Translations under genes and position numbers: made by a program
DNA from: an uncultured bacterium
Lineage (GTDB): Bacteria; Schekmanbacteria; GWA2-38-11; J061
DNA length: 17,598 nucleotides
Direction of reading: 5' to 3'
Assembly (NCBI GenBank): GCA_964549305.1
Contig: CAZJVM010000049.1
Location: 1 to 17,598 of the forward strand
Shown here: positions 4,100 through 13,501 of the stretch, one piece after another
How positions within the stretch are numbered: position 1 is the first letter of the stretch
Layout of the letters: each line of letters starts with the position of its first letter
Notes under the pieces: generated by a model
What the model was told of the DNA's origin: nothing
The model's input: the letters and a program-made list of their open reading frames with translations, nothing else
The model's database searches: none

Positions 4100-5509
4100 T
4101 TATTCCCCTATCCTGTGAAGCTTCATGAAATTCGTTTTTCCGCGTTTGGATAAGGGCGTGCTTGCAGTGATTACAATCCTGTCTCCCTTCTTAACTATTC
4201 TCTTTTTAAGAAGCATTTTATCAACTTCCTTTATCATCCTGTCGGTATCAGTTATTGCAGGCATATAAAGCGGGACGACTCCCCAGAATAGCGGAAGTCT
4301 TCTTAAGACGTCATTATCAGGCGTGAACACTACAATCGGGGACTGCGGTCTGAACTTTGATACAAGCCGTGCAGTAAATCCCGACTGGCTGAAAGCAACT
4401 ATGGCTTTCGCGCCTATATCCTCCCCTGCCCTGCACGCCGCATCTGCAACTGCCTCAGAATCCGATTGTCCGCGGATATAAGATGTGGCGCTTTTCCTGC
4501 TTTCCTCTGTTCTGGAAATAATTCTGGCCATTGTCTTAACCGCTTCAACAGGATACTTTCCTGCAGAAGTTTCCCCTGAAAGCATCAGCCCATCGCTAGA
4601 ATCGAGTACCGCATTTGCAACATCCGCCGCTTCCGCTCTTGTGGGACGGGAATGTTCAGTCATAGATTCAAGCATCTGCGTTGCGGTTATGACGATTTTC
4701 CCCATATTGTTTGCCTTCTCTATGAGCATCTTCTGAATAATCGGGACTTCCTCCTGCGCAACTTCAACTCCAAGGTCGCCGCGCGCAATCATTATGCCGT
4801 CGGAAACTCCAATAATTTCATCTATATTTTCAAGTGCTGAAGGTTTTTCTATTTTTGCTATCACGGGAATATTTTTCCCTCTTCTTTCAATTTCCTGTTT
4901 AACCACTGTTACATCGGAAGCGCGCATTACAAAGGACACAGCAACATAATCGACATTCATCCCGATTCCGAAATCAAGATCCTTTTTGTCCTTCGGGGTA
5001 AATGATTTAACTGATATTTTCATTCCCGGAAAATTCACACCTTTCCTGTCGCTTATCACCCCTCCTTCAACAACTTTCGCCTTCAATTCCTTTTTAGATT
5101 TTCCCGTAACCTTAAGAATAATCATCCCGTCATCAAGAAGTATCTTCTCACCGAGCGCCGCGTCTTTTAACAACCGGGGATATGAAAGATAGAGTTTTGT
5201 TTCGTCGCCGACCCCTTCGCCTGCAATCAGTGACAGGGTGCTTCCTTTTTTAAGATACGCTTTGCCGTCTCTGATAAGTCCTGTGCGAATTTTGATGCCC
5301 TGAAGATCCTGCAATATGGAAACTGTCTTCTTAAGCTTCTCAGACTGCTGTCTTACAAGCTCAATCATCTTTTTATGAAATTCATAGGTCCCGTGAGAAA
5401 AATTAAGACGGGCAACATCCATACCGCCTTTTATCATAAGGGAAACTATTTTTGGTGTTGATGATACAGGGCCAAGCGTGCAGATGATTTTCGCTTTCCT
5501 CTTATCCAT
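4100..5509 (-). CDS. pyk: Pyruvate kinase (Lys117-type, predicted K+-independent)
   Basis: KIICTLGP, ARLNFSHG, DLQGIKIRTG, IAKIE, MIARGDLGVE, TATQMLESM, RPTRAE, MLSGETS motifs. Confidence 0.98.
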   Translation of the reverse strand: MDKRKAKIICTLGPVSSTPKIVSLMIKGGMDVARLNFSHGTYEFHKKMIELVRQQSEKLKKTVSILQDLQGIKIRTGLIRDGKAYLKKGSTLSLIAGEGVGDETKLYLSYPRLLKDAALGEKILLDDGMIILKVTGKSKKELKAKVVEGGVISDRKGVNFPGMKISVKSFTPKDKKDLDFGIGMNVDYVAVSFVMRASDVTVVKQEIERRGKNIPVIAKIEKPSALENIDEIIGVSDGIMIARGDLGVEVAQEEVPIIQKMLIEKANNMGKIVITATQMLESMTEHSRPTRAEAADVANAVLDSSDGLMLSGETSAGKYPVEAVKTMARIISRTEESRKSATSYIRGQSDSEAVADAACRAGEDIGAKAIVAFSQSGFTARLVSKFRPQSPIVVFTPDNDVLRRLPLFWGVVPLYMPAITDTDRMIKEVDKMLLKKRIVKKGDRIVITASTPLSKRGKTNFMKLHRIGE

Positions 5510-5518
5510 AAATAATAC

Positions 5519-7012
5519 CTAAAAGATTGTCTGAAAAAATGTATATGCCATAACTGCTATAAGGATTATTCCTATAACATCGAGTACAGCGCCATACCGA
5601 ATCATCTTTCTTATTGGGACATAACCCGAACCATAGACAATTGCGTTAGGCGGTGTCGAGACAGGAAGCATAAACGCGAGACTTGTGGCAAAACAGGCGG
5701 CAAGGGCGGGCACTACGGGATTTATCCCCAGATTCTGCGATACTGCAATCGCCACGGGAATTATCATATTTGCCGATGCAGTATTAGATGTCGTTTCTGT
5801 AAGGATAACTGCCACAATGCAGAACAACACAGACACGCCAAGAAGACTCTTTACCTGCGTCGCCGAAATAAGATAATTCCCGAATGAAGACGCAAGCCCG
5901 GTCTTGAACATTATATTGCCGAGCGAAAGACCCCCTCCAAAAAGAAGAATAGTTCCCCAGTCAATCTTTGCCGCATCTTCCCACTTAAGGGTAAACTCCC
6001 TCTTCTTCCAGTTCACGGGCAGGAAAAAGAGAAGCGAAGTACCTATGAGCGCGGCAACCGCCTCCGGCATCACTGCCACAAGAAACCGCGCGAGGGGATG
6101 CGTCTTGCCAAGTATAACAACTGTTATTCCCGGAAAAATCCATAGAAACACAGTGACTAAAAAAGATATAAGAACATTCTTTTGAGCCTTTGTAAGCGAA
6201 TTCTTTCCGGAAAAACTGACGCCTATGGCATTGTCAATTGTGTTAAAACTTATACTACCCGATGAAATCCCGCGTTTCATGACAAAAAACAGAGCAATAA
6301 AAATAAGGATGGAAAGTGGAAGCGCCATATACATCCACTGGAAGAAATAAATTCTTATATCAAGATATTTTTCAATCATTCCAAGGGCTATCAGATTAGG
6401 AGGGGTCCCTATAGGAGTACTTATTCCACCTATTGAAGCGCTGAATGCCATCATTAACATAAGCGAATAGGCAAACTTTTTCTTTTCTGAAGAATTTTCA
6501 TCCATCGAAGTTATTATGCTTAACGCAATCGGCACCATCATCGCAGTTGTAGCCGTATTGCTGAGCCACATTGATAAAAACCAGACAACAAATCCGAATG
6601 CGAATAGCAGGCGTGCTTTTGATGAACCTACCCATCTGTTCCTTAAAATCACCGACGCGATTACTCGGTCAACACCCCGAACAGACATTGCCCGCGCGAT
6701 TATGAATGTCCCCATCATCAAAAAAATTATCGGATGGGCAAATGGCGCGAAAATCTCCTTCATTGAACCGACTGCAAGTATCACGCAAAGTGTAGGGCCG
6801 AGAAGCGCCGCGACAGGAATAGGGATTGCCTCGGTGACCCAGAATATTACTACTAAAACAACAACTGCGGCAAGACGACCCTGAATGGAATTACCCTGAA
6901 GATAATTTAAAATAATAATCAGAAAAAAAAGGAGAGGGCCTGCAATAAACCCGGAAAGCTTTCTTACTTTCTCGAATTTCTCTTCACCTTCAGATATTTT
7001 TGTTTCAGTCAT
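5519..7012 (-). CDS. DASS/SLC13 family sodium:dicarboxylate (or sulfate) symporter
   Basis: Many TM segments; WVTEAIP; two SNT motifs (MWLSNTATT, ETTSNTAS); GTPPN and STPPNAIVY. Confidence 0.93.
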   Translation of the reverse strand: MTETKISEGEEKFEKVRKLSGFIAGPLLFFLIIILNYLQGNSIQGRLAAVVVLVVIFWVTEAIPIPVAALLGPTLCVILAVGSMKEIFAPFAHPIIFLMMGTFIIARAMSVRGVDRVIASVILRNRWVGSSKARLLFAFGFVVWFLSMWLSNTATTAMMVPIALSIITSMDENSSEKKKFAYSLMLMMAFSASIGGISTPIGTPPNLIALGMIEKYLDIRIYFFQWMYMALPLSILIFIALFFVMKRGISSGSISFNTIDNAIGVSFSGKNSLTKAQKNVLISFLVTVFLWIFPGITVVILGKTHPLARFLVAVMPEAVAALIGTSLLFFLPVNWKKREFTLKWEDAAKIDWGTILLFGGGLSLGNIMFKTGLASSFGNYLISATQVKSLLGVSVLFCIVAVILTETTSNTASANMIIPVAIAVSQNLGINPVVPALAACFATSLAFMLPVSTPPNAIVYGSGYVPIRKMIRYGAVLDVIGIILIAVMAYTFFQTIF

Positions 7013-7015
7013 ATT

Positions 7016-9175
7016 TTAAACAAGCTCTCCTTCGAATTTTCCGGAATTTCTCACGAGTACCACACTGCCGAATCCCTCTGTCAATTTTTCAATGTGGCGC
7101 GCATATTCCATCTCCTCACCTGCCTCGGGAAGCATCAATCCAAGGAAAACCACATCGGCATCCGCTGATTCCTCCTTCATTGTTTCCTCGATGGATTTGT
7201 CCTTTTCACGCAAAATCACTTTTGCCTCGGCGGGAATTCTTGTTGAGGGGATAAGCTCTCCGAGACTCTTACTCATTTCTTTTTCCGACATCTCGCTTGT
7301 TACAATACTTTTCACTGTAATCGTGGAGCGCCTCCACTCCGAATTCAGCGAAAGCAGATAGGCAAGCAGAAGCATCATATCCCCGTTGTGCTGTTTACCC
7401 CGCCACCAGATATCAATTTTTTTATTCTTTTTTCCTATTTCGAGGTCTGATATGTCGGCAATGATAACTGATTTATCCATAGTGCTGACTCTTCGCATAA
7501 TCCTGAGATAAGAGGCAAGCCTTTCCGTGTAGTTGCTCCATCCGAACATGAGAGTGTTTGAAGCCAATCCCGCAATCCCCTGTGTCTGCATCATTGCTAT
7601 GATTCCTTCCTCAAAGTGCTCGACAACGTTGACCTCGCTGAATGCAATCAACTCTCCCCTGTCAAGAGTCTCGTCAATGACCGCTTCTTCCTTGTCGATT
7701 TTTTCCGCGGCATCATCGATTTTCCCCTCTATGATATTGCACACCGTAAGAATTCCCCTGTTGTGATTCAGCCACGAAGCGAAACGCACAAGACCTATCC
7801 GCTTTTTCACATCGCCCGCAAAGAGAAGGATGTGAGGCCTCCAGTTTCGGGGGTTTTCAGGCAATTCATTAAGGTTGATGAGAGAATATCTGGCGAGTGA
7901 AAGCCAAAGTCCCCTTCTCATATCGCCCCAGGTCGCCCTCATCTCCTTTCTTCTGAGCATTGCCCATACGGCGGTTTCAAAGATAATCGCAGTAAAGCAG
8001 GCAGTTTTGCTGATGAGAAACATTACCCAGAAGCAGGCGACTGCGCCGGCAATGGAAAGAAGCGAAGGAATATTAATTCTTGGCCTGTAGTAAGGGTCTG
8101 CGGCAAGTTTTTCAAGCCCTGCCACAAGATTTATCATCCCGTATGTCGTAAGGAAAAATATTGTCACAAAAGGTGCGACAGCATTCAAATCTCCCAGAAG
8201 CACGGAAGCGAGAGCTATAGATGAGGACAATATTATGGCAGGAATGGATTCTCCGCCTTTAAGCTGATATTTTGAAAAAAAAGAGGGAACGACTCTGTCG
8301 TTCGCAAGTGCCTGAAGAGTCCGGGGTGCGGCAAGTATGCTGCCGACGGCGGAAGAAAAAATTGCTCCCCACAAACCGGGCAGAACCAGAAAAGGCACGA
8401 TGGCAACCTTTGTCCACACCAGACTGTCTTCGAGAAGAGTTGTCTTATCGGCGCTGAAAGCAAGCGCCACCGGAACTGCCAAATAAAAAATGAATCCCGT
8501 AATCACGGCAAGAAGAGTACCCGCGGGGATGGACTTCTGAGGATTTTTCAAATCTCCCGACATGCTTACGCCCGCGAGAATTCCCGTAACTGCAGGAAAA
8601 AAAACGGCAAATACCGTCCAAAAATCAATTCCCGTTTCATAACCTCCCCACAGCACAGCACTTCCTACCTCAAAATTAGCTCCCGCGAAAAGGGATATAA
8701 AAGAGAGCGCAATGAAAACCATAACGGGTATCTGCATCTTCAGAGAAAGTTCTGCGCCCTTTACCGAAATAAGAGTGACGGCAAGGACAACTATTGCCGC
8801 AACGATTTCAATGGGCAATTCCGGAAATAATATCCTCAAAGATTCCGCGAATCCGAAAGAGTAGAGCGTAACGGATAACACCTGAGACAGATAAAGGGGA
8901 ATACCTATGGCGCCGCCTATTTCAAGCCCGAGACTCCTTGAAACGATGTAATACGCCCCTCCCACTCCCACTGACATATTTGTCGACACCGCGGAAACTG
9001 AAAGCGCCGTAACGAGGGATATTATATTTGCAAGCCCGATTATCGCCAGTGCCGGAAGAAGTCCTGCATTCCCCACAACCCATCCTACACGCAGATAGAG
9101 TATGACTCCCAGAATGGTAAGAATAGAAGGAGTGAAGACGCCGAGAAAAGTATTTAATTTCGGGGAAGAATTCAT
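7016..9175 (-). CDS. Prokaryotic cation-chloride cotransporter (SLC12/CCC family, APC superfamily)
   Basis: TM1 GVFTPSILTILGVILYLR, GGAYYIVSRSLGLEIGGAIG, TM6 FFPAVTGILAGVSMSGDLK, TM10 FFLTTY; soluble C-terminal domain with NWRPHIL and IDIWW motifs as in NKCC/KCC. Confidence 0.92.
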   Translation of the reverse strand: MNSSPKLNTFLGVFTPSILTILGVILYLRVGWVVGNAGLLPALAIIGLANIISLVTALSVSAVSTNMSVGVGGAYYIVSRSLGLEIGGAIGIPLYLSQVLSVTLYSFGFAESLRILFPELPIEIVAAIVVLAVTLISVKGAELSLKMQIPVMVFIALSFISLFAGANFEVGSAVLWGGYETGIDFWTVFAVFFPAVTGILAGVSMSGDLKNPQKSIPAGTLLAVITGFIFYLAVPVALAFSADKTTLLEDSLVWTKVAIVPFLVLPGLWGAIFSSAVGSILAAPRTLQALANDRVVPSFFSKYQLKGGESIPAIILSSSIALASVLLGDLNAVAPFVTIFFLTTYGMINLVAGLEKLAADPYYRPRINIPSLLSIAGAVACFWVMFLISKTACFTAIIFETAVWAMLRRKEMRATWGDMRRGLWLSLARYSLINLNELPENPRNWRPHILLFAGDVKKRIGLVRFASWLNHNRGILTVCNIIEGKIDDAAEKIDKEEAVIDETLDRGELIAFSEVNVVEHFEEGIIAMMQTQGIAGLASNTLMFGWSNYTERLASYLRIMRRVSTMDKSVIIADISDLEIGKKNKKIDIWWRGKQHNGDMMLLLAYLLSLNSEWRRSTITVKSIVTSEMSEKEMSKSLGELIPSTRIPAEAKVILREKDKSIEETMKEESADADVVFLGLMLPEAGEEMEYARHIEKLTEGFGSVVLVRNSGKFEGELV

Positions 9176-9204
9176 TTTAGCATCCTGAAGTCCGGGGAAA
9201 ATGC

Positions 9205-11418
9205 CTATTTATTATTTTCACCCAAAAAACTCTTTAACAGAGAAAGTATTTCACCGTGAGTCTGTACATTAAAATTCGCGTTTGACTGAACAATTCCAAC
9301 TCTGACGGAATTACCTGATCTCGGCATTACCTTAAAAAGCTCTTCATCGGTCCAGTTATCGCCTGTGGAAAAAATAAAATCATAGTCTTTATCTTTTATC
9401 CAGTGAAGGCAGGCAGTTCCTTTGTTAACACCGGAATTTATTACCGCTATGACCTTATACCCCCTGATTACCTGCACATCGAGGTTTGCCGTAAACTCCA
9501 CAAGATCGTCGAGAAGCTCTTTTGCCCGTATGAGACTCAGCTCGGTATCCGCTTTTCTGTAATAAAGAGACGCTGAATATTCTTTTTCTTCCACAAAGGA
9601 ACCCGGAAGCCTTCCTCCATAGGTTTTAAGAATAGGCACAATCTGTTTTTTCCAGTCGTTTGTAAGCGGTTTTATGACTCTCCACTCGCCGTCAAGTCCC
9701 TTTATCCACGAACCGTTTTCGGCAACAAGGGCTATTTTAAGCTTACCGAACCACTTTTCCAGAAATCGCCTCTCACTGCCGCTTAAAATGACAACCATAT
9801 TCCTGTCATCTTTAACGAGTTTTTTAATCATTTTCAAAAGCGCCCGGGAAGGTTCGACCTTCTGAGGATGACCCGGAAAAGGAACGAGAGTTCCCTCATA
9901 ATCGAGTATAAGCAAACGTCTTTTCGCTTTCCTGTATTTTGAAATGAGACTCTTCTCCGCTCTTGAATTGAGCAGGCGGGCATTGAATTGCCTTTGTTCG
10001 CTTTTAAGGAGAAGTAACTGCTGCATAAAATCTTCCGCCCACCTCATTACGTTATAACGCTTTATTCTTTCCTGCATAACACTGTTTGCCTCAATCTGCT
10101 CTTCAAGGGGCATCTCAAGCGCGGTTTTCACCGCGTCGGCAATCTCTTCAATGTTATTGGGATTGATGATTACAGCCTCACCAAGCTCTTTTGCGGTACC
10201 TGCCATTTCACTTAGGATCAGGACTCCGTCCCCCTTCTTTCTCGACGCGATATATTCCTTGGCAATCAGATTCATTCCGTCCCGCAAAGGCGTTATCATA
10301 GCCACGTCACTTACGCTGTAAAGGGCAACGAGCGAATCAAAGGGCAGTGACCTGTACTGATAAACTATTGGAATCCAGTTCATTCTACCGAACCTTCCGT
10401 TGATTTTTCCCACCATTTCATCTATCTGTTTTTTCATCTGTCTGTACTGGTCAACCCCCGTTCTCGAAGGAACTACAATTATTACAAGGACTACTTTTCT
10501 GTGCCACTGTGGATTATCAACAAGAAATTTCTCGTAGGCAAGAAGGCGATTGATGATTCCCTTTGTATAATCGAGACGGTCAATGGAAAGAACAACTTTC
10601 TGCTTGAAAAGCATTTTATTCAGTTTCTGCCTGCCCTCTTTCACGCTTTTTTCAGACAGGGCATTGTGATACTTGTCATAATCGATTCCCATGGGGAATG
10701 TTTCCGCTTTTATAATCCTGTTGCCATACACAATTTTTCCCATATTGTTCTCGTGGCCCAAAAGACGAAGGACGCATCTCAAAAAGTACTGCGTATAATC
10801 GTGAATATGAAAACCGATAATATCCGCGCCGAGAAGTCCCTCGAGAATCTCCTGCCTCCATTTTCCCGGAAGCAGGCGGAATATTTCAAATGCGGGAAAA
10901 GGAATATGAAGAAAGAAACCGATACTCAATCCGGGAAACTTCTTCCTGAGCATATTCGGCAGAAGCATTAAATGATAATCGTGTATCCAAACTATATCGT
11001 CAGGTTTGATTACCTCCGCCACTGAATCATAGAAAAGCTTATTGACAAGTTTGTAATGTTCCCAGTATTCCTTGTCAAATACCGTATAAGACGGAAAGTA
11101 GTGAAAAAGCGGCCATATGGTATTATTGCAGAAACCGTAATAATATTTATCCATCGACTCTTCGGGAATAAAAACGGGATAAGCGTTTAGCTTGGGAAGT
11201 TCTTTCGTTTTAAGGAGTTTCTTAGTTTTTGCATCGGGCTCTATATCGGGCCAGCCTATCCAAAGATATTCGGGGCCTTTTTTACCTGAACCTTTTATGG
11301 AATCAAGATAAGCGGTAAGCCCCGAAACAAGACCTCCCGGACTCATCCTGAGGTTGAGCTTGTCATCTTTTTTTTCAACTATTACGGGCAACCTGTTTGA
11401 AACAACTATCAGCCTCAT
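9205..11418 (-). CDS. Fused trehalose-6-phosphate synthase (GT20) / trehalose-6-phosphate phosphatase (HAD-IIB) protein; phosphatase motifs degenerate
   Basis: GT20 motifs VSNRLP, GGL, WPLFHY, HDYHL, FLHIPFP, DRLDYTKG, PSR, DGMNL.AKE, LSE. The C-terminal ~240 aa HAD domain has DYEGTL, SGS, AENG, NKG, GDNWTDE. AAGGA lies 10 nt upstream of the ATG. Confidence 0.95.
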   Translation of the reverse strand: MRLIVVSNRLPVIVEKKDDKLNLRMSPGGLVSGLTAYLDSIKGSGKKGPEYLWIGWPDIEPDAKTKKLLKTKELPKLNAYPVFIPEESMDKYYYGFCNNTIWPLFHYFPSYTVFDKEYWEHYKLVNKLFYDSVAEVIKPDDIVWIHDYHLMLLPNMLRKKFPGLSIGFFLHIPFPAFEIFRLLPGKWRQEILEGLLGADIIGFHIHDYTQYFLRCVLRLLGHENNMGKIVYGNRIIKAETFPMGIDYDKYHNALSEKSVKEGRQKLNKMLFKQKVVLSIDRLDYTKGIINRLLAYEKFLVDNPQWHRKVVLVIIVVPSRTGVDQYRQMKKQIDEMVGKINGRFGRMNWIPIVYQYRSLPFDSLVALYSVSDVAMITPLRDGMNLIAKEYIASRKKGDGVLILSEMAGTAKELGEAVIINPNNIEEIADAVKTALEMPLEEQIEANSVMQERIKRYNVMRWAEDFMQQLLLLKSEQRQFNARLLNSRAEKSLISKYRKAKRRLLILDYEGTLVPFPGHPQKVEPSRALLKMIKKLVKDDRNMVVILSGSERRFLEKWFGKLKIALVAENGSWIKGLDGEWRVIKPLTNDWKKQIVPILKTYGGRLPGSFVEEKEYSASLYYRKADTELSLIRAKELLDDLVEFTANLDVQVIRGYKVIAVINSGVNKGTACLHWIKDKDYDFIFSTGDNWTDEELFKVMPRSGNSVRVGIVQSNANFNVQTHGEILSLLKSFLGENNK

Positions 11419-11521
11419 CTTTCACAAATCCTTTTTTTTCTCTCACCAAAGTATTCTGCGTAATGATTACAGGCGGAATATTAACTGATAACAGATAAAT
11501 AAAGCAGTAAAAATATTTTTT

Positions 11522-11551
11522 ATTATACCGATTTTTTGCCTTTCAGGTCAA
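11522..11551 (-). promoter_or_regulatory. sigma70-type promoter of the TPSP-CCC-DASS-pyk operon (TTGACC-N18-TATAAT)
   Basis: Minus strand: TTGACC at 11551-11546 and perfect TATAAT at 11527-11522, about 100 nt upstream of the TPSP start. Confidence 0.7.
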
Positions 11552-11622
11552 AGAATTGTAGGCAATGACCTTTTTAGATTTGTTTATCATCCTTTCCCTT
11601 TCAAATCATCCTTCACTCATAA

Positions 11623-11643
11623 GCGAAAAAAATATTTTTTCGC
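11623..11643. promoter_or_regulatory. Inverted repeat GCGAAAAAA-ATA-TTTTTTCGC, candidate TF site
   Basis: 9-bp perfect arms with a 3-nt spacer between the two divergent promoters, 28 nt upstream of the tldD -35. Confidence 0.45.
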
Positions 11644-11671
11644 ATTATATTCATAACAGGTTACAGATGAG

Positions 11672-11700
11672 TTGACAGAAAAATATCTAACGAATAATAT
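11672..11700 (+). promoter_or_regulatory. sigma70-type promoter of the TldD-like gene (TTGACA-N17-TAATAT)
   Basis: Perfect -35 at 11672-11677, 17-nt spacer, -10 TAATAT at 11695-11700. GGAG SD at 11729-11732 is 8 nt before ATG 11741. Confidence 0.75.
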
Positions 11701-11740
11701 CTATGGACTTAACTTATCAGAAATTAACGGAGAATGAAAA

Positions 11741-13501
11741 ATGAAAAGAAGCATCAAAAAGCTGTCAACAGCCATTATACTGATTAGCATTTCTCTTTTT
11801 ACGGGAGGATGGTTTCAGGCATTGGAAGAAAAAAAGCCGGAAAAGTTAATTAATATAATGAAAGATGAGCTAAACCGTTCTATGGAAGAGCTCAAACTTC
11901 CGGATTTCGAATCACCCTATTTCATCAGCTATCTGCTCAGGGAATCAAAACTTTTTTCAATATCGGCTAAAAACGGAGCGCTCTATTCTAATAATAGCAG
12001 AACCGCGCGCTCCATATACTGCGAAACCCGCGTGGGCGATTACAGTTTTGACAGTTCAAATATTGGAGCACCGGATTACGGATTCACAAACAAATATTCA
12101 TACGGAGGCGGATATGGTTTGATTGCCGCACCGATTGAAGACAACGAAACAGCCCTAAAAACATCTCTCTGGCTGCTCACAGACAGCAAATACAAGCGCG
12201 CTCTTTCTTCCTATCTCAAGAAGAAAAGCGAAAAGATATTCAAGGTTGATGACAAGGACGAAGAAGAACTTGACGATTTCTCAAAGGAAGATCCTGACAT
12301 ATTCATATCAGAAAAAAAAGAACTGTCCTACAATGAGAAAAAGATTGCGAACAACCTTCGTAAGGCAAGCAAAATATTCAACGGCTTTCCCGAAATAAGA
12401 AGCAGTGGTGTCGAGGCGGAAGGCAGAGTGCTTTCCCGCTACTATATAAACTCGGAAGGGCAAAAGGTTTTCACATCCTATCCTCTTTATATGTCCAGCG
12501 TATCAGCGAGTATGATTACGGAAAAAGGGGAAGGGATTTCCAATGCCGACGTCCACTACGATACTGACTCTGACAGCATCTTTGACAGTAAAACACTTGA
12601 AAAAAGCATCTCCAGGGTAGTAGATGAACTCAAAATGCTCAGCGGTGCGAGCAAGATGGACCCCTATGCGGGACCTGCGATACTTTCGCCTAAAGTGACC
12701 GGAGTTTTTTTCCACGAAGCGATAGGACACCGCTTAGAGGGTGAAAGGCAGAGGACGGAAAATGAGGGACAGACATTCAAGGGGAAGACAGGCAAAAAAA
12801 TAATTCCTGATTTTTTATCCGTTGAAGATGACCCTACTTTGAAAAGCTTTCAGGGAATTAACCTTAACGGATTCTATGAATTTGATGATGAAGGCGTACG
12901 CGCCCAAAGAGTTGAACTCATAAAAGGCGGAATATTGAAGAATTTTCTCCTTTCACGCACTCCAATCAAGGGCTTCAACAACTCAAACGGGCACGGCAGG
13001 TCAAGCGCTCAGAGAAAACCGATGGGGCGAATGGCAAATCTAATCGTTAAATCCTCAAAAGAATATTCTGAAGAAGAACTTAAAAAAATGCTCATAGCGG
13101 AAGCAAAGAAGAAGGGAAAAAAATTCGGACTGATAATAAAGGATATAGAAGGCGGAGGCGAAACGAATACGGGAAGACGCTCATTTCAGGCATTCAGAAG
13201 TACACCCAAGTTCGTCTATAAGGTCGATGTGGAAACGGGCAAGGAAGAACTTGTAAGAGGCGTGGAAATTGTGGGTACTCCCATAATCAGCATAAACAGA
13301 ATTATCGCCACGGGAAATGATTATAAAATATTCAACGGTTACTGCGGTGCGGAATCAGGTTCCGTACCTGTGTCAACTGTTGCGCCAAGCGTACTCATAG
13401 AAGAAATAGAGCTTCAGAGAAAACCGATGAAAAAGACGCGTCCGCCGATAATAGGGAAACCGTCAGCGTCGGAAAATATCAATATGGGGAAAAAGGATTA
13501 A
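11741..13501 (+). CDS. TldD/PmbA family zinc metalloprotease (TldD-like catalytic subunit) with N-terminal signal peptide
   Basis: FFHEAIGHRLE (HExxxH, residues 325-330), DDPTL, FDDEGV, SNGHGR, RM.NL, and C-terminal YCGAESG (Cys535). N-terminus MKRSIKKLSTAIILISISLFTGGWFQA resembles a Sec signal. Confidence 0.9.
   Translation: MKRSIKKLSTAIILISISLFTGGWFQALEEKKPEKLINIMKDELNRSMEELKLPDFESPYFISYLLRESKLFSISAKNGALYSNNSRTARSIYCETRVGDYSFDSSNIGAPDYGFTNKYSYGGGYGLIAAPIEDNETALKTSLWLLTDSKYKRALSSYLKKKSEKIFKVDDKDEEELDDFSKEDPDIFISEKKELSYNEKKIANNLRKASKIFNGFPEIRSSGVEAEGRVLSRYYINSEGQKVFTSYPLYMSSVSASMITEKGEGISNADVHYDTDSDSIFDSKTLEKSISRVVDELKMLSGASKMDPYAGPAILSPKVTGVFFHEAIGHRLEGERQRTENEGQTFKGKTGKKIIPDFLSVEDDPTLKSFQGINLNGFYEFDDEGVRAQRVELIKGGILKNFLLSRTPIKGFNNSNGHGRSSAQRKPMGRMANLIVKSSKEYSEEELKKMLIAEAKKKGKKFGLIIKDIEGGGETNTGRRSFQAFRSTPKFVYKVDVETGKEELVRGVEIVGTPIISINRIIATGNDYKIFNGYCGAESGSVPVSTVAPSVLIEEIELQRKPMKKTRPPIIGKPSASENINMGKKD

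What the first reader, a model, noticed from the sequence alone, without database searches (positions are those of the whole stretch)
9205..9960. TPS-TPP fusion whose phosphatase domain looks catalytically dead while the synthase is intact
Seen in the TPP domain: motif I DYE508GT (consensus DYDGT; the general acid/base Asp is Glu, GAG at 9897-9895), motif II SGS548 (consensus SGR), AEN568G (AEHG), LY619YR (WHYR), VIA658V (VIEV) and motif IV GDN688WTDE (GDDxTDE). The nucleophile D506 and the NKG lysine remain, and the frame is open and full length. Each substituted codon (GAG, AGT, AAC, TAT, GCG, AAC) is one nucleotide from a codon for the consensus residue. The OtsA-type G6P/UDP-Glc contact motifs (SNR, WPLFH, HDYH, HIP, DRLDYTKG, PSR, DGMNL, KE) are all intact. 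Established: the DxD second Asp and the cap His/Glu residues are needed for T6P hydrolysis; plant class I TPS proteins carry inactive TPP-like domains; T6P is a signalling metabolite in yeast and plants. Inference: a bacterial pseudophosphatase fusion that makes T6P without hydrolysing it, either as a signal or as substrate for another enzyme, with the HAD domain kept for structure or regulation.
Basis: partly seen in the sequence, partly recalled or inferred. Interest (0 to 1): 0.85.

Follow-up and report, generated by a model that had tools for sequence, protein, structure and literature searches.

The report
Trehalose synthase with altered phosphatase domain
A bacterial trehalose-phosphate synthase carries a fused phosphatase-like domain whose family-invariant catalytic and substrate residues were swapped in one small lineage that also keeps a separate normal phosphatase, much like the inactive phosphatase domains on plant, yeast and cyanobacterial sugar synthases.

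Summary
ORF 9205..11418(-) encodes a 737-aa GT20 synthase fused to a TPP-type HAD domain carrying DYE508GT, SGS548, AEN568G, L618-Y619-YR, VIA658V and GDN688WTDE.

The combination is confined to one genus-level clade: 3 of 120 fusion homologues, 0 of 78 fusions from other species genomes, 0 of 150 representatives. It is not an assembly error. Three assemblies share it, and public contigs cover all seven codons without difference.

The domain is not decaying. Synonymous sites are saturated while pN is 0.135. Its stem branch is twice that of the synthase part. All 14 active-site positions are fixed within the clade.

The genome holds a second, canonical standalone TPP. Eight genomes with canonical fusions have none.

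"Dead" is not shown. The nucleophile and the Mg/phosphate residues remain, and Glu at D+2 is natural in enolase-phosphatases.

Most likely the fusion makes T6P, the standalone TPP hydrolyses it, and the altered domain is kept for a non-canonical role. It is a new variant of a known kind, of moderate interest.

The parts
9205..11418 (-). Whole gene: 737-aa GT20 trehalose-6-phosphate synthase fused to a TPP-like HAD-IIB domain (P0001)
   Evidence: NCBIfam NF011071 bifunctional TPS/TPP scores 967 bits against a cutoff of 634.
10015..11415 (-). GT20 synthase domain, the only GT20 in the genome. All substrate and catalytic motifs are intact.
   Evidence: Y93, D147, H171, R281, K286, R319, D380 and E388 are invariant columns of alignment A1.
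9286..9909 (-). TPP-like HAD domain. It scores 135.9 bits on PF02358, against 152-189 bits for canonical fused TPP domains.
9895..9903 (-). Motif I, D506-Y-E508. The nucleophile Asp is kept (GAT). The D+2 general acid/base Asp is replaced by Glu (GAG).
9775..9783 (-). Motif II, S546-G-S548. The phosphate-binding Ser is kept. The TPP-invariant Arg is replaced by Ser (AGT here, AGC in the sister species).
9715..9717 (-). N568, replacing the TPP-invariant His of (A/G)xHG at the core-to-cap hinge
9562..9567 (-). L618-Y619, replacing W-H of WHYR in the cap. The His is TPP-invariant. The Trp is not conserved outside the fusions.
9445..9447 (-). A658, replacing the near-invariant Glu of VxE(V/I) at the cap-to-core hinge (GCG here, GCT in the sister species)
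9421..9423 (-). K666, the motif III lysine, kept
9346..9360 (-). Motif IV, D687-N688-W-T-D691. Both general HAD acids are kept. The TPP-family-invariant middle Asp is replaced by Asn.
7016..9175 (-). Next gene downstream after a 29-base gap: 719-aa SLC12-type cation-chloride cotransporter homologue. This neighbour is conserved in the sister species.
4100..7012 (-). Further same-strand, tightly spaced genes: a DASS/CitMHS-type transporter (5519-7012) and pyruvate kinase (4100-5509)

Best explanation
The gene encodes a working UDP-glucose:glucose-6-phosphate trehalose-6-phosphate synthase. In the ancestor of one genus-level lineage, its fused C-terminal TPP domain lost the canonical machinery for recognising and hydrolysing trehalose-6-phosphate.

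Proposed mechanism:
- The fusion releases T6P.
- The genome's separate, fully canonical 271-aa TPP removes the phosphate. That gene sits in a TPP-DUF5752-TreT-like cluster that, in related genomes, also contains its own GT20 synthase.
- The altered HAD domain keeps an intact Mg2+/phosphoryl-binding core and is held under purifying selection. It serves a non-canonical role needed by the synthase: structural support, regulation, or binding and hand-over of T6P. This role has been proposed for the inactive phosphatase domain of Synechocystis sucrose-phosphate synthase.

Shown: the substitutions, their confinement to the clade, the selection pattern, the second TPP, and the gene-cluster comparison. 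Inferred: loss of T6P phosphatase activity, division of labour with the standalone TPP, and the non-catalytic role.
For: (1) Six positions invariant or nearly so in TPPs are changed together: D+2, the SGR Arg, two His, the hinge Glu and the motif-IV middle Asp. They read E/S/N/Y/A/N in only 3 of 120 fusion homologues. None of 78 fusions from other species genomes has them; 80 loci were fetched and 2 gave no usable ORF. None of 150 50%-identity representatives has E508, Y619 or A658. All 8 fusions in sampled relatives are canonical, with one Y at position 568.

(2) In an alignment of 47 mixed standalone and fused TPPs, the D+2 Asp, the SGR Arg, both His and the middle Asp are invariant.

(3) In Brugia TPP the D+2 Ala variant drops kcat from 24 to about 0.0004 s-1 (PMC4081830, passages). 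Loss of the motif-2 Arg was taken by Avonce et al. 2006 as a sign of a non-phosphatase (PMC1769515, passages).

(4) The genome has a second PF02358 hit, a 271-aa ORF with DYDGT, SGR, GNHG, FHYR, VIEIRP and GDDKTDE. It scores 176 bits on TIGR00685 against a cutoff of 68. The sister species has the same pair of loci in synteny. The 8 sampled genomes with canonical fusions have no second TPP.

(5) In G003 (same order) and G011, that standalone TPP's homologue lies in GT20-TPP-DUF5752-TreT-like clusters. It is therefore a bona fide partner of a GT20 synthase, and G000 has lost that GT20; the fusion is the only GT20 left.

(6) The domain is constrained, not decaying:
- pS is 0.81-0.85 (saturated), against pN 0.108 for the synthase part and 0.135 for the TPP-like part.
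- Within the clade, TPP-part identity is 0.79-0.83 against 0.78 expected from the synthase part.
- S548 and A658 differ synonymously between species.
- The change came as a burst on the stem: 0.552 against 0.273 substitutions per site, with medians of 0.067 and 0.064. The identity residual is -0.074, the lowest of 105 sequences.

(7) T. tenax TPSP needs its fused TPP domain for GT-mediated activation of the synthase, so a TPP domain can matter to TPS apart from catalysis (PMC3634074, abstract).
Against: No activity was measured.

The nucleophile and all general HAD phosphate and Mg residues are kept (D506, T510, S546, K666, D687, D691). All 14 active-site positions are invariant among the three clade members, while 171 of 232 domain columns are (P about 0.012). 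A purely structural scaffold would not need that.

D+2 is Glu, still an acid, and 4 of 4 above-cutoff enolase-phosphatase (TIGR01691) genes found in 201 genomes read DIEGT. Cap residues E610, K612 and R621, invariant in the family, are also kept.

The link between the second TPP and the degenerate fusion rests on one evolutionary event, two sister genomes.

The specific T6P contacts of R548, H568, H619, E658 and D688 could not be checked. The two structure papers with ligand complexes are not held.
Confidence: 0.55

Rival explanations
1. Retooled enzyme. The HAD domain is still a Mg-dependent phosphotransferase or phosphatase, using D506 as nucleophile and E508 as acid/base. Its leaving-group pocket has been rebuilt, so it acts on a substrate other than T6P, or on T6P in a different and perhaps regulated mode.
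For: The changes spare every general HAD phosphoryl and Mg residue. They hit five of six TPP-specific positions plus a conservative D-to-E. By hand calculation on a post-hoc split of 13 sites, that is about 0.025 by chance.

The same replacement residues are fixed in all three clade members, with synonymous codon differences at two of them. All 14 active-site positions are invariant in the clade.

There was a burst on the stem followed by normal constraint. DxEGT is the native motif I of enolase-phosphatases.
Against: No candidate substrate or partner pathway was found. No GH65, GH37 trehalase or TreS is present in the genome.

R-to-S, E-to-A and H-to-N remove charge and hydrogen-bonding capacity rather than replacing it with new polar groups.

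Only three sequences at about 80% identity are available, so conservation of the new residues has low statistical power.
Confidence: 0.25
2. Ordinary bifunctional TPSP. Despite the substitutions the domain still hydrolyses T6P well enough, and the standalone TPP is merely a second copy belonging to the other cluster.
For: By sequence scores it is a family member: NF011071 at 967 bits against a cutoff of 634, and TIGR00685 at 102 bits against a cutoff of 68. The nucleophile, motifs II-IV and cap residues E610, K612 and R621 are kept. Glu can act as an acid/base in a HAD enzyme. In Brugia TPP no single cap residue was critical for binding (PMC4081830, passages).
Against: Six positions that do not vary in 117 of 120, 78 of 78 and about 140 of 150 relatives are all changed at once. 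The TPP part of the stem branch is twice as long as the synthase part. The D+2 mutation costs about 60,000-fold in Brugia TPP.
Confidence: 0.15
3. Artefact or decay. The substitutions are assembly or binning errors, or the domain is a dying remnant.
For: The source is a draft metagenome-type assembly of 169 contigs. Read support is thin, with contig depths of 2-4.
Against: Three separate assemblies carry the same seven residues. Contigs from runs of two different samples match the window without difference over 9575-9960, 9205-9523 and 9492-9693, which covers all seven codons. The frame is open. pN/pS is far below 1, and domain identity between species is 79%. That is higher than the 59% for the canonical standalone TPP.
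Confidence: 0.03

Closest known systems
Prokaryotic bifunctional TPSP (Cytophaga hutchinsonii ChTPSP, Thermoproteus tenax TPSP; NCBIfam NF011071 / PRK14501)
   Same: Same architecture and clear homology over the full length: 967 bits, and 50-62% identity to many bacterial and archaeal TPSPs. The synthase residues are intact. In the TPS tree the clade is nested among canonical TPSPs.
   Different: The characterised members keep the TPP motifs (PMC3634074 section 23). Here D+2, the SGR Arg, two His, the hinge Glu and the middle Asp of motif IV are replaced, and a separate TPP is encoded elsewhere.
Synechocystis PCC 6803 bidomainal sucrose-phosphate synthase, with its non-functional SPP-like (PHD) domain plus a separately encoded SPP
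   Same: A bacterial sugar-phosphate synthase fused to a HAD phosphatase-like domain that lacks conserved catalytic residues, with the real phosphatase encoded by another gene. The domain's function is unknown; binding and channelling of the sugar phosphate has been proposed (PMC9971976, passages).
   Different: It belongs to a different glycosyltransferase family and a different HAD subfamily, in the sucrose pathway. The SPS domain has lost the nucleophile Asp itself, whereas here the nucleophile and the whole phosphoryl/Mg core are kept.
Plant class I TPS (AtTPS1-4) and yeast/fungal Tps3/Tsl1 regulatory subunits
   Same: GT20 plus a TPP-like domain that lacks the HAD active-site residues yet is under purifying selection (PMC1769515, passages). 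The solved fungal 'trehalose synthase regulatory protein' 5hus_A even shares AENG in place of AEHG.
   Different: These are eukaryotic and far more degenerate, with motif I lost. Tps3/Tsl1 also lack synthase activity. Here the event is recent, genus-level and selective for TPP-specific residues.
HAD enolase-phosphatase E1 (MtnC, TIGR01691)
   Same: Motif I reads D-x-E-G-T, with Glu at D+2, in 4 of 4 above-cutoff genes examined.
   Different: It is a different HAD subfamily, cap type and substrate. The resemblance is limited to motif I. That the family is an active phosphatase is recalled, not tested here.

Membership tests
Bifunctional TPS/TPP fusion (TPSP; NF011071) | Full-length homology above the curated cutoff | tested here: met
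   967.4 bits against a cutoff of 634. Pfam GT20 plus Trehalose_PPase.
Bifunctional TPS/TPP fusion (TPSP; NF011071) | GT20 synthase residues for UDP-Glc and G6P | tested here: met
   All motifs are present. Y93, D147, H171, R281, K286, R319, D380 and E388 are invariant columns of A1. They correspond by motif position to CaTps1 Y89, D143, H171, R280, K285, R318, D379 and E387 (PMC5527307, passages). This mapping was inferred; no residue-level alignment was printed.
Bifunctional TPS/TPP fusion (TPSP; NF011071) | HAD motif I DxDx(T/V), with Asp at D+2 | tested here: not met
   DYE508GT. Among homologues, 117 of 120 and 78 of 78 have Asp.
Bifunctional TPS/TPP fusion (TPSP; NF011071) | TPP-family invariant residues: SGR Arg, xHG His, HYR His, hinge Glu, GDD middle Asp | tested here: not met
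   All five are replaced, by S548, N568, Y619, A658 and N688.
Bifunctional TPS/TPP fusion (TPSP; NF011071) | T6P phosphatase activity, with trehalose as the product of the single protein | not testable with these tools
   Needs an enzyme assay or complementation.
Non-catalytic (pseudo)phosphatase HAD domain on a sugar-phosphate synthase (SPS6803 PHD, plant class I TPS, Tsl1/Tps3) | Loss of residues required for catalysis | tested here: inconclusive
   D+2 Asp is replaced by Glu and five family-invariant residues are lost. However, the nucleophile D506, S546, K666, D687 and D691 are kept, and DxE is native to an active HAD family.
Non-catalytic (pseudo)phosphatase HAD domain on a sugar-phosphate synthase (SPS6803 PHD, plant class I TPS, Tsl1/Tps3) | A separate active phosphatase for the same sugar phosphate is encoded in the genome | tested here: met
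   A canonical 271-aa TPP lies at G000:C8, and likewise in the sister genome. Its activity is inferred from sequence.
Non-catalytic (pseudo)phosphatase HAD domain on a sugar-phosphate synthase (SPS6803 PHD, plant class I TPS, Tsl1/Tps3) | Domain retained under purifying selection | tested here: met
   pN 0.135 with saturated pS of 0.81. Within-clade identity is at or above expectation.

The most novel reading that the evidence does not exclude
The HAD domain is not dead but re-engineered. It keeps the Asp nucleophile and the Mg/phosphate core, uses a DxE motif I like enolase-phosphatases, and has a rebuilt leaving-group pocket. It therefore works either as a phosphatase for a different phospho-metabolite or as a T6P/phosphate-sensing module that gates the fused synthase. 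That would uncouple T6P synthesis from hydrolysis and give a bacterium a regulated T6P pool.
Probability: 0.25. Interest if true: 0.65.

Novelty: new variant of a known kind. Interest (0 to 1): 0.45.

Why it matters
Inactive phosphatase-like domains on sugar-phosphate synthases are textbook in plants, yeast and some cyanobacteria, but why they are kept is still open. This is a young, clean bacterial case in the trehalose pathway:
- one lineage;
- six family-invariant residues flipped in one burst;
- the phosphoryl core spared;
- the domain still constrained;
- a canonical TPP and the remnants of an older TPS/TPP operon in the same genome.

Because canonical relatives at 50-62% identity are available, the ancestral and derived states can be compared and interconverted by a handful of point mutations. 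That makes the question of what such a domain does testable.

There is also a practical point. Family models, and the public annotation of the sister protein, call these proteins 'bifunctional synthase/phosphatase', which probably overstates their function.

Tried and rejected
- Complex prediction of the altered domain (residues 485-737) with the standalone TPP gave no answer: score 0.00 against a mark of 0.32. It says nothing either way.

- The look-up of sequencing runs listed no RNA holder, so there is no information on expression.

- The papers with TPP-ligand structures (Miao 2016 PNAS; Harvey 2020 Biochemistry) are not held. The reviews and papers I could read gave no residue-level T6P contacts for the changed positions. 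The contact roles of R548, H568, H619, E658 and D688 therefore rest on family invariance, not on a structure.

- Literature searches for the enolase-phosphatase DxE motif failed (the second was badly worded). I replaced them with a direct genome look-up.

- A search for 'DUF5752' found no paper. A search for pseudophosphatase plus trehalose-6-phosphate found nothing on bacterial TPSPs, as did the TPSP search. 'Not in print' rests on these searches only. Supplementary alignments of PMC1769515 and PMC3634074 could not be seen and might show such a case.

- The AlphaFold2 model of the whole protein has mean pLDDT 88.4, with the HAD part mostly 85-94. It was built on an alignment dominated by canonical relatives, and no coordinates were available, so it was not used to argue for or against activity. 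No fold search was run.

- dN/dS proper could not be computed because synonymous sites are saturated.

- Considered and rejected: a changed synthase acceptor. G58 to D/E in the GWPG motif and R444 to A/S are the only non-conservative clade changes among 131 invariant synthase columns, and none is a known substrate residue.
Full report
**What is there.** The window is contig C49 of a 2.94-Mb, 169-contig draft genome of an uncultured bacterium. The ORF 9205..11418 on the minus strand encodes 737 aa. It has a GT20 synthase domain at residues 2-468 (E 1.4e-155) and a Trehalose_PPase HAD domain at 504-711 (E 1.6e-38). It scores 967 bits on NCBIfam's bifunctional TPS/TPP model, against a cutoff of 634.

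D506 and K666 are kept. The OtsA-type motifs are all present.

**How unusual it is.** I aligned the 120 best full-length-range homologues of the HAD part.
- 117 carry D, R, H, W, H, E, D at these seven positions.
- Exactly three carry E, S, N, L, Y, A, N: the window's protein and two relatives about 80% identical to it. One of them corresponds to the same-genus genome G001.

An independent sample came from other species' genomes. Of 80 loci fetched, 78 gave a usable ORF.
- D508, R548, H619 and D688 appear in 78 of 78.
- H568 and E658 appear in 77 of 78.

Among the 150 best representatives of a 1.84-billion-protein library, none has E at 508, Y at 619 or A at 658. The few multi-site degenerate entries there are a 241-aa protein and three ~945-aa proteins. 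I take the latter, from recall and unchecked, to be plant class-I-like.

In a mixed alignment of 47 standalone and fused TPPs, the D+2 Asp, the SGR Arg, both His and the middle Asp of GDD are invariant, and the hinge Glu is at least 90% conserved.

By contrast, of 131 near-invariant synthase columns only six differ in the clade. Four of these are conservative: F92Y, L374M, A408T and L452I. The other two are G58D/E and R444A/S.

**Not an artefact.**
- Three assemblies share the seven residues.
- Public contigs from runs of two different samples match the window without any difference over 9575-9960 (X1), 9205-9523 (X2) and 9492-9693 (X4). Together these cover all seven codons.
- Depths are low, and one run may be the window's own source, so this is modest support on top of the three assemblies.

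**Selection.** Between the window and the sister species, synonymous sites are saturated (pS 0.85 and 0.81). pN is 0.108 in the synthase part and 0.135 in the HAD part. Amino-acid identity is 83% and 79% respectively.

The HAD part of the clade is 0.074 less identical to 104 canonical fusions than its synthase identity predicts. That is the lowest residual of all 105 sequences; the per-sequence SD is 0.018. Inside the clade it is as similar as predicted or more so, 0.79-0.83 against 0.78.

In LG+gamma trees the clade's stem is 0.273 substitutions per site for the synthase part and 0.552 for the HAD part. Median branches are 0.064 and 0.067. In the synthase tree the clade is nested among canonical fusions under midpoint rooting.

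S548 (AGT/AGC) and A658 (GCG/GCT) differ synonymously between the species. All 14 active-site positions, seven old and seven new, are invariant in the three clade members, while 171 of 232 domain columns are (chance about 0.012).

So the picture is a burst of change on the stem, followed by ordinary purifying selection. This is a shift of function, not decay.

**Genome context.** The fusion is the only GT20 gene in the genome, but there is a second TPP. It is a 271-aa ORF on contig C8 with DYDGT, SGR, GNHG, FHYR, VIEIRP and GDDKTDE. It scores 176 bits on TIGR00685 against a cutoff of 68.

It lies in the order CBS protein, Na+/H+ exchanger, TPP, DUF5752, TreT-like GT4. Both loci are syntenic in the sister genome.

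In G003 (same order) and G011, the homologous cluster reads GT20 (864 aa with an N-terminal extension), TPP, DUF5752, TreT-like. The standalone TPP is therefore the phosphatase of an older TPS/TPP operon whose own synthase gene is missing in the window's genus.

The eight sampled genomes with canonical fusions have no second PF02358 hit. The two genomes with the altered fusion both do. This is one evolutionary event, so it counts as consistency rather than statistics.

No GH65, GH37 trehalase or TreS was found in the genome, which is 100% complete by marker genes.

In the window, the fusion is followed on the same strand by an SLC12-type cation-chloride transporter homologue, a DASS/CitMHS transporter and pyruvate kinase. 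The first of these neighbours is conserved in the sister species. This setting fits osmotic adaptation, which is an inference.

**How dead is the domain?** Points for loss of T6P phosphatase activity:
- The D+2 Asp is the general acid/base. Its Ala variant in Brugia TPP drops kcat from 24 to about 0.0004 s-1 (PMC4081830, passages).
- The motif-2 Arg has been treated as catalytically implicated (PMC1769515, passages).
- Five more residues that never vary in TPPs are gone.

Points against calling it dead:
- D506, T510, S546, K666, D687 and D691 are all kept, along with the family-invariant cap residues E610, K612 and R621.
- The D+2 replacement is Glu. In 201 genomes, all 4 genes scoring above the cutoff for the HAD enolase-phosphatase family read DIEGT. 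That this family is an active phosphatase is recalled.
- W618L is irrelevant, because active TPPs have L, F, V or I there.
- The changes hit five of six TPP-specific positions but only one of seven general HAD positions, and that one conservatively. By hand calculation on a post-hoc split of 13 sites, this is about 0.025 by chance.

**Most likely mechanism (confidence 0.55).** The fusion makes T6P and the standalone TPP makes trehalose. The altered domain no longer handles T6P in the canonical way. It is retained because the synthase needs it, for stability or regulation, or for binding and handing over T6P.

Two precedents support this:
- T. tenax TPSP, where GT-dependent synthase activity needs the fused TPP domain (PMC3634074, abstract and sections 22-23).
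- Synechocystis SPS, whose inactive phosphatase-like domain coexists with a separate SPP and has been proposed to channel the sugar phosphate (PMC9971976, passages).

**Rivals.**
- A retooled, still active phosphatase or sensor (0.25).
- A still ordinary bifunctional enzyme (0.15).
- Artefact or decay (0.03).

**Comparison and novelty.** By homology this is a TPSP. By the family's catalytic signature it fails motif I and five TPP-specific residues, so it should not be filed as a bifunctional enzyme without an assay.

Functionally it most resembles the non-catalytic HAD domains of Synechocystis SPS, plant class I TPS and fungal Tps3/Tsl1; 5hus_A even shares AENG. It differs in keeping the nucleophile and the whole phosphoryl core, and in being a recent, genus-level event.

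My searches found no report of such a prokaryotic TPSP. Supplementary alignments of the two evolutionary papers could not be seen. I rate it a new variant of a known kind, of moderate interest. Its main value is as a tractable pair of ancestral and derived states for asking what these domains do, and as a caution for automatic annotation.

Noticed in passing
L033 (G000:C8:36000-52000) 5635-9976; L126 (G003) 8037-13337; L127 (G011): A conserved cluster of TPP, DUF5752 and a TreT-like GT4 (PF21269 E 4e-55; 378 bits on the TreT equivalog model, below its 775 cutoff). In G003 and G011 it is preceded by a GT20 synthase. In G000 and G001 it is preceded instead by a Na+/H+ exchanger and a CBS protein. 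DUF5752 appears in no paper of the searched library, and its role next to two trehalose-type glycosyltransferases is unexplained.
   Followed up: partly
L033 7507-8322 (-) versus L029 1468-2259 (+): The canonical standalone TPP is only 59% identical between the two sister species. Its neighbours are 85-90% identical, and the altered fused domain is 79% identical. The 'real' phosphatase is evolving faster than the altered one.
   Followed up: no
L126 10743-13337 (-): The GT20 synthase of the G003 cluster is 864 aa. Its roughly 390-aa N-terminal extension gives only sub-threshold hits to sensor-type domains (CHASE8, Cache, CBS). It may be a sensor-fused TPS.
   Followed up: no
window 11245-11247 (G58 codon) and 10087-10089 (R444 codon): In the synthase half the clade has D/E in place of the Gly of the GWPG motif, which is invariant in 104 of 104 homologues. 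It also has A/S in place of an Arg conserved in 112 of 117. The significance is unknown, and neither is among the substrate-contact residues read from PMC5527307.
   Followed up: partly
window 7016-9175 (-): A 719-aa prokaryotic SLC12-type cation-chloride cotransporter homologue lies directly downstream of the synthase gene: AA_permease plus SLC12, and a sub-threshold match to the prokaryotic CCC C-terminal domain. The neighbour is conserved in the sister species.
   Followed up: no
PDB 5hus_A: The solved fungal 'trehalose synthase regulatory protein' aligns to the altered domain and also reads AENG where TPPs read AEHG. This is a parallel His-to-Asn change in a known non-catalytic paralogue.
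   Followed up: no
window 11741-13501 (+): A divergently transcribed 586-aa PmbA/TldD-type metallopeptidase homologue with a hydrophobic N-terminus. It is conserved next to the synthase gene in the sister species at 71% identity.
   Followed up: no
P0181, P0191, P0219: Three ~945-aa representatives carry N at D+2, T/L/N at the SGR Arg and S at the first His. From recall their length fits plant class I TPS, but I did not check this. They are the only other multi-site degenerate fusions among the 150 representatives.
   Followed up: no
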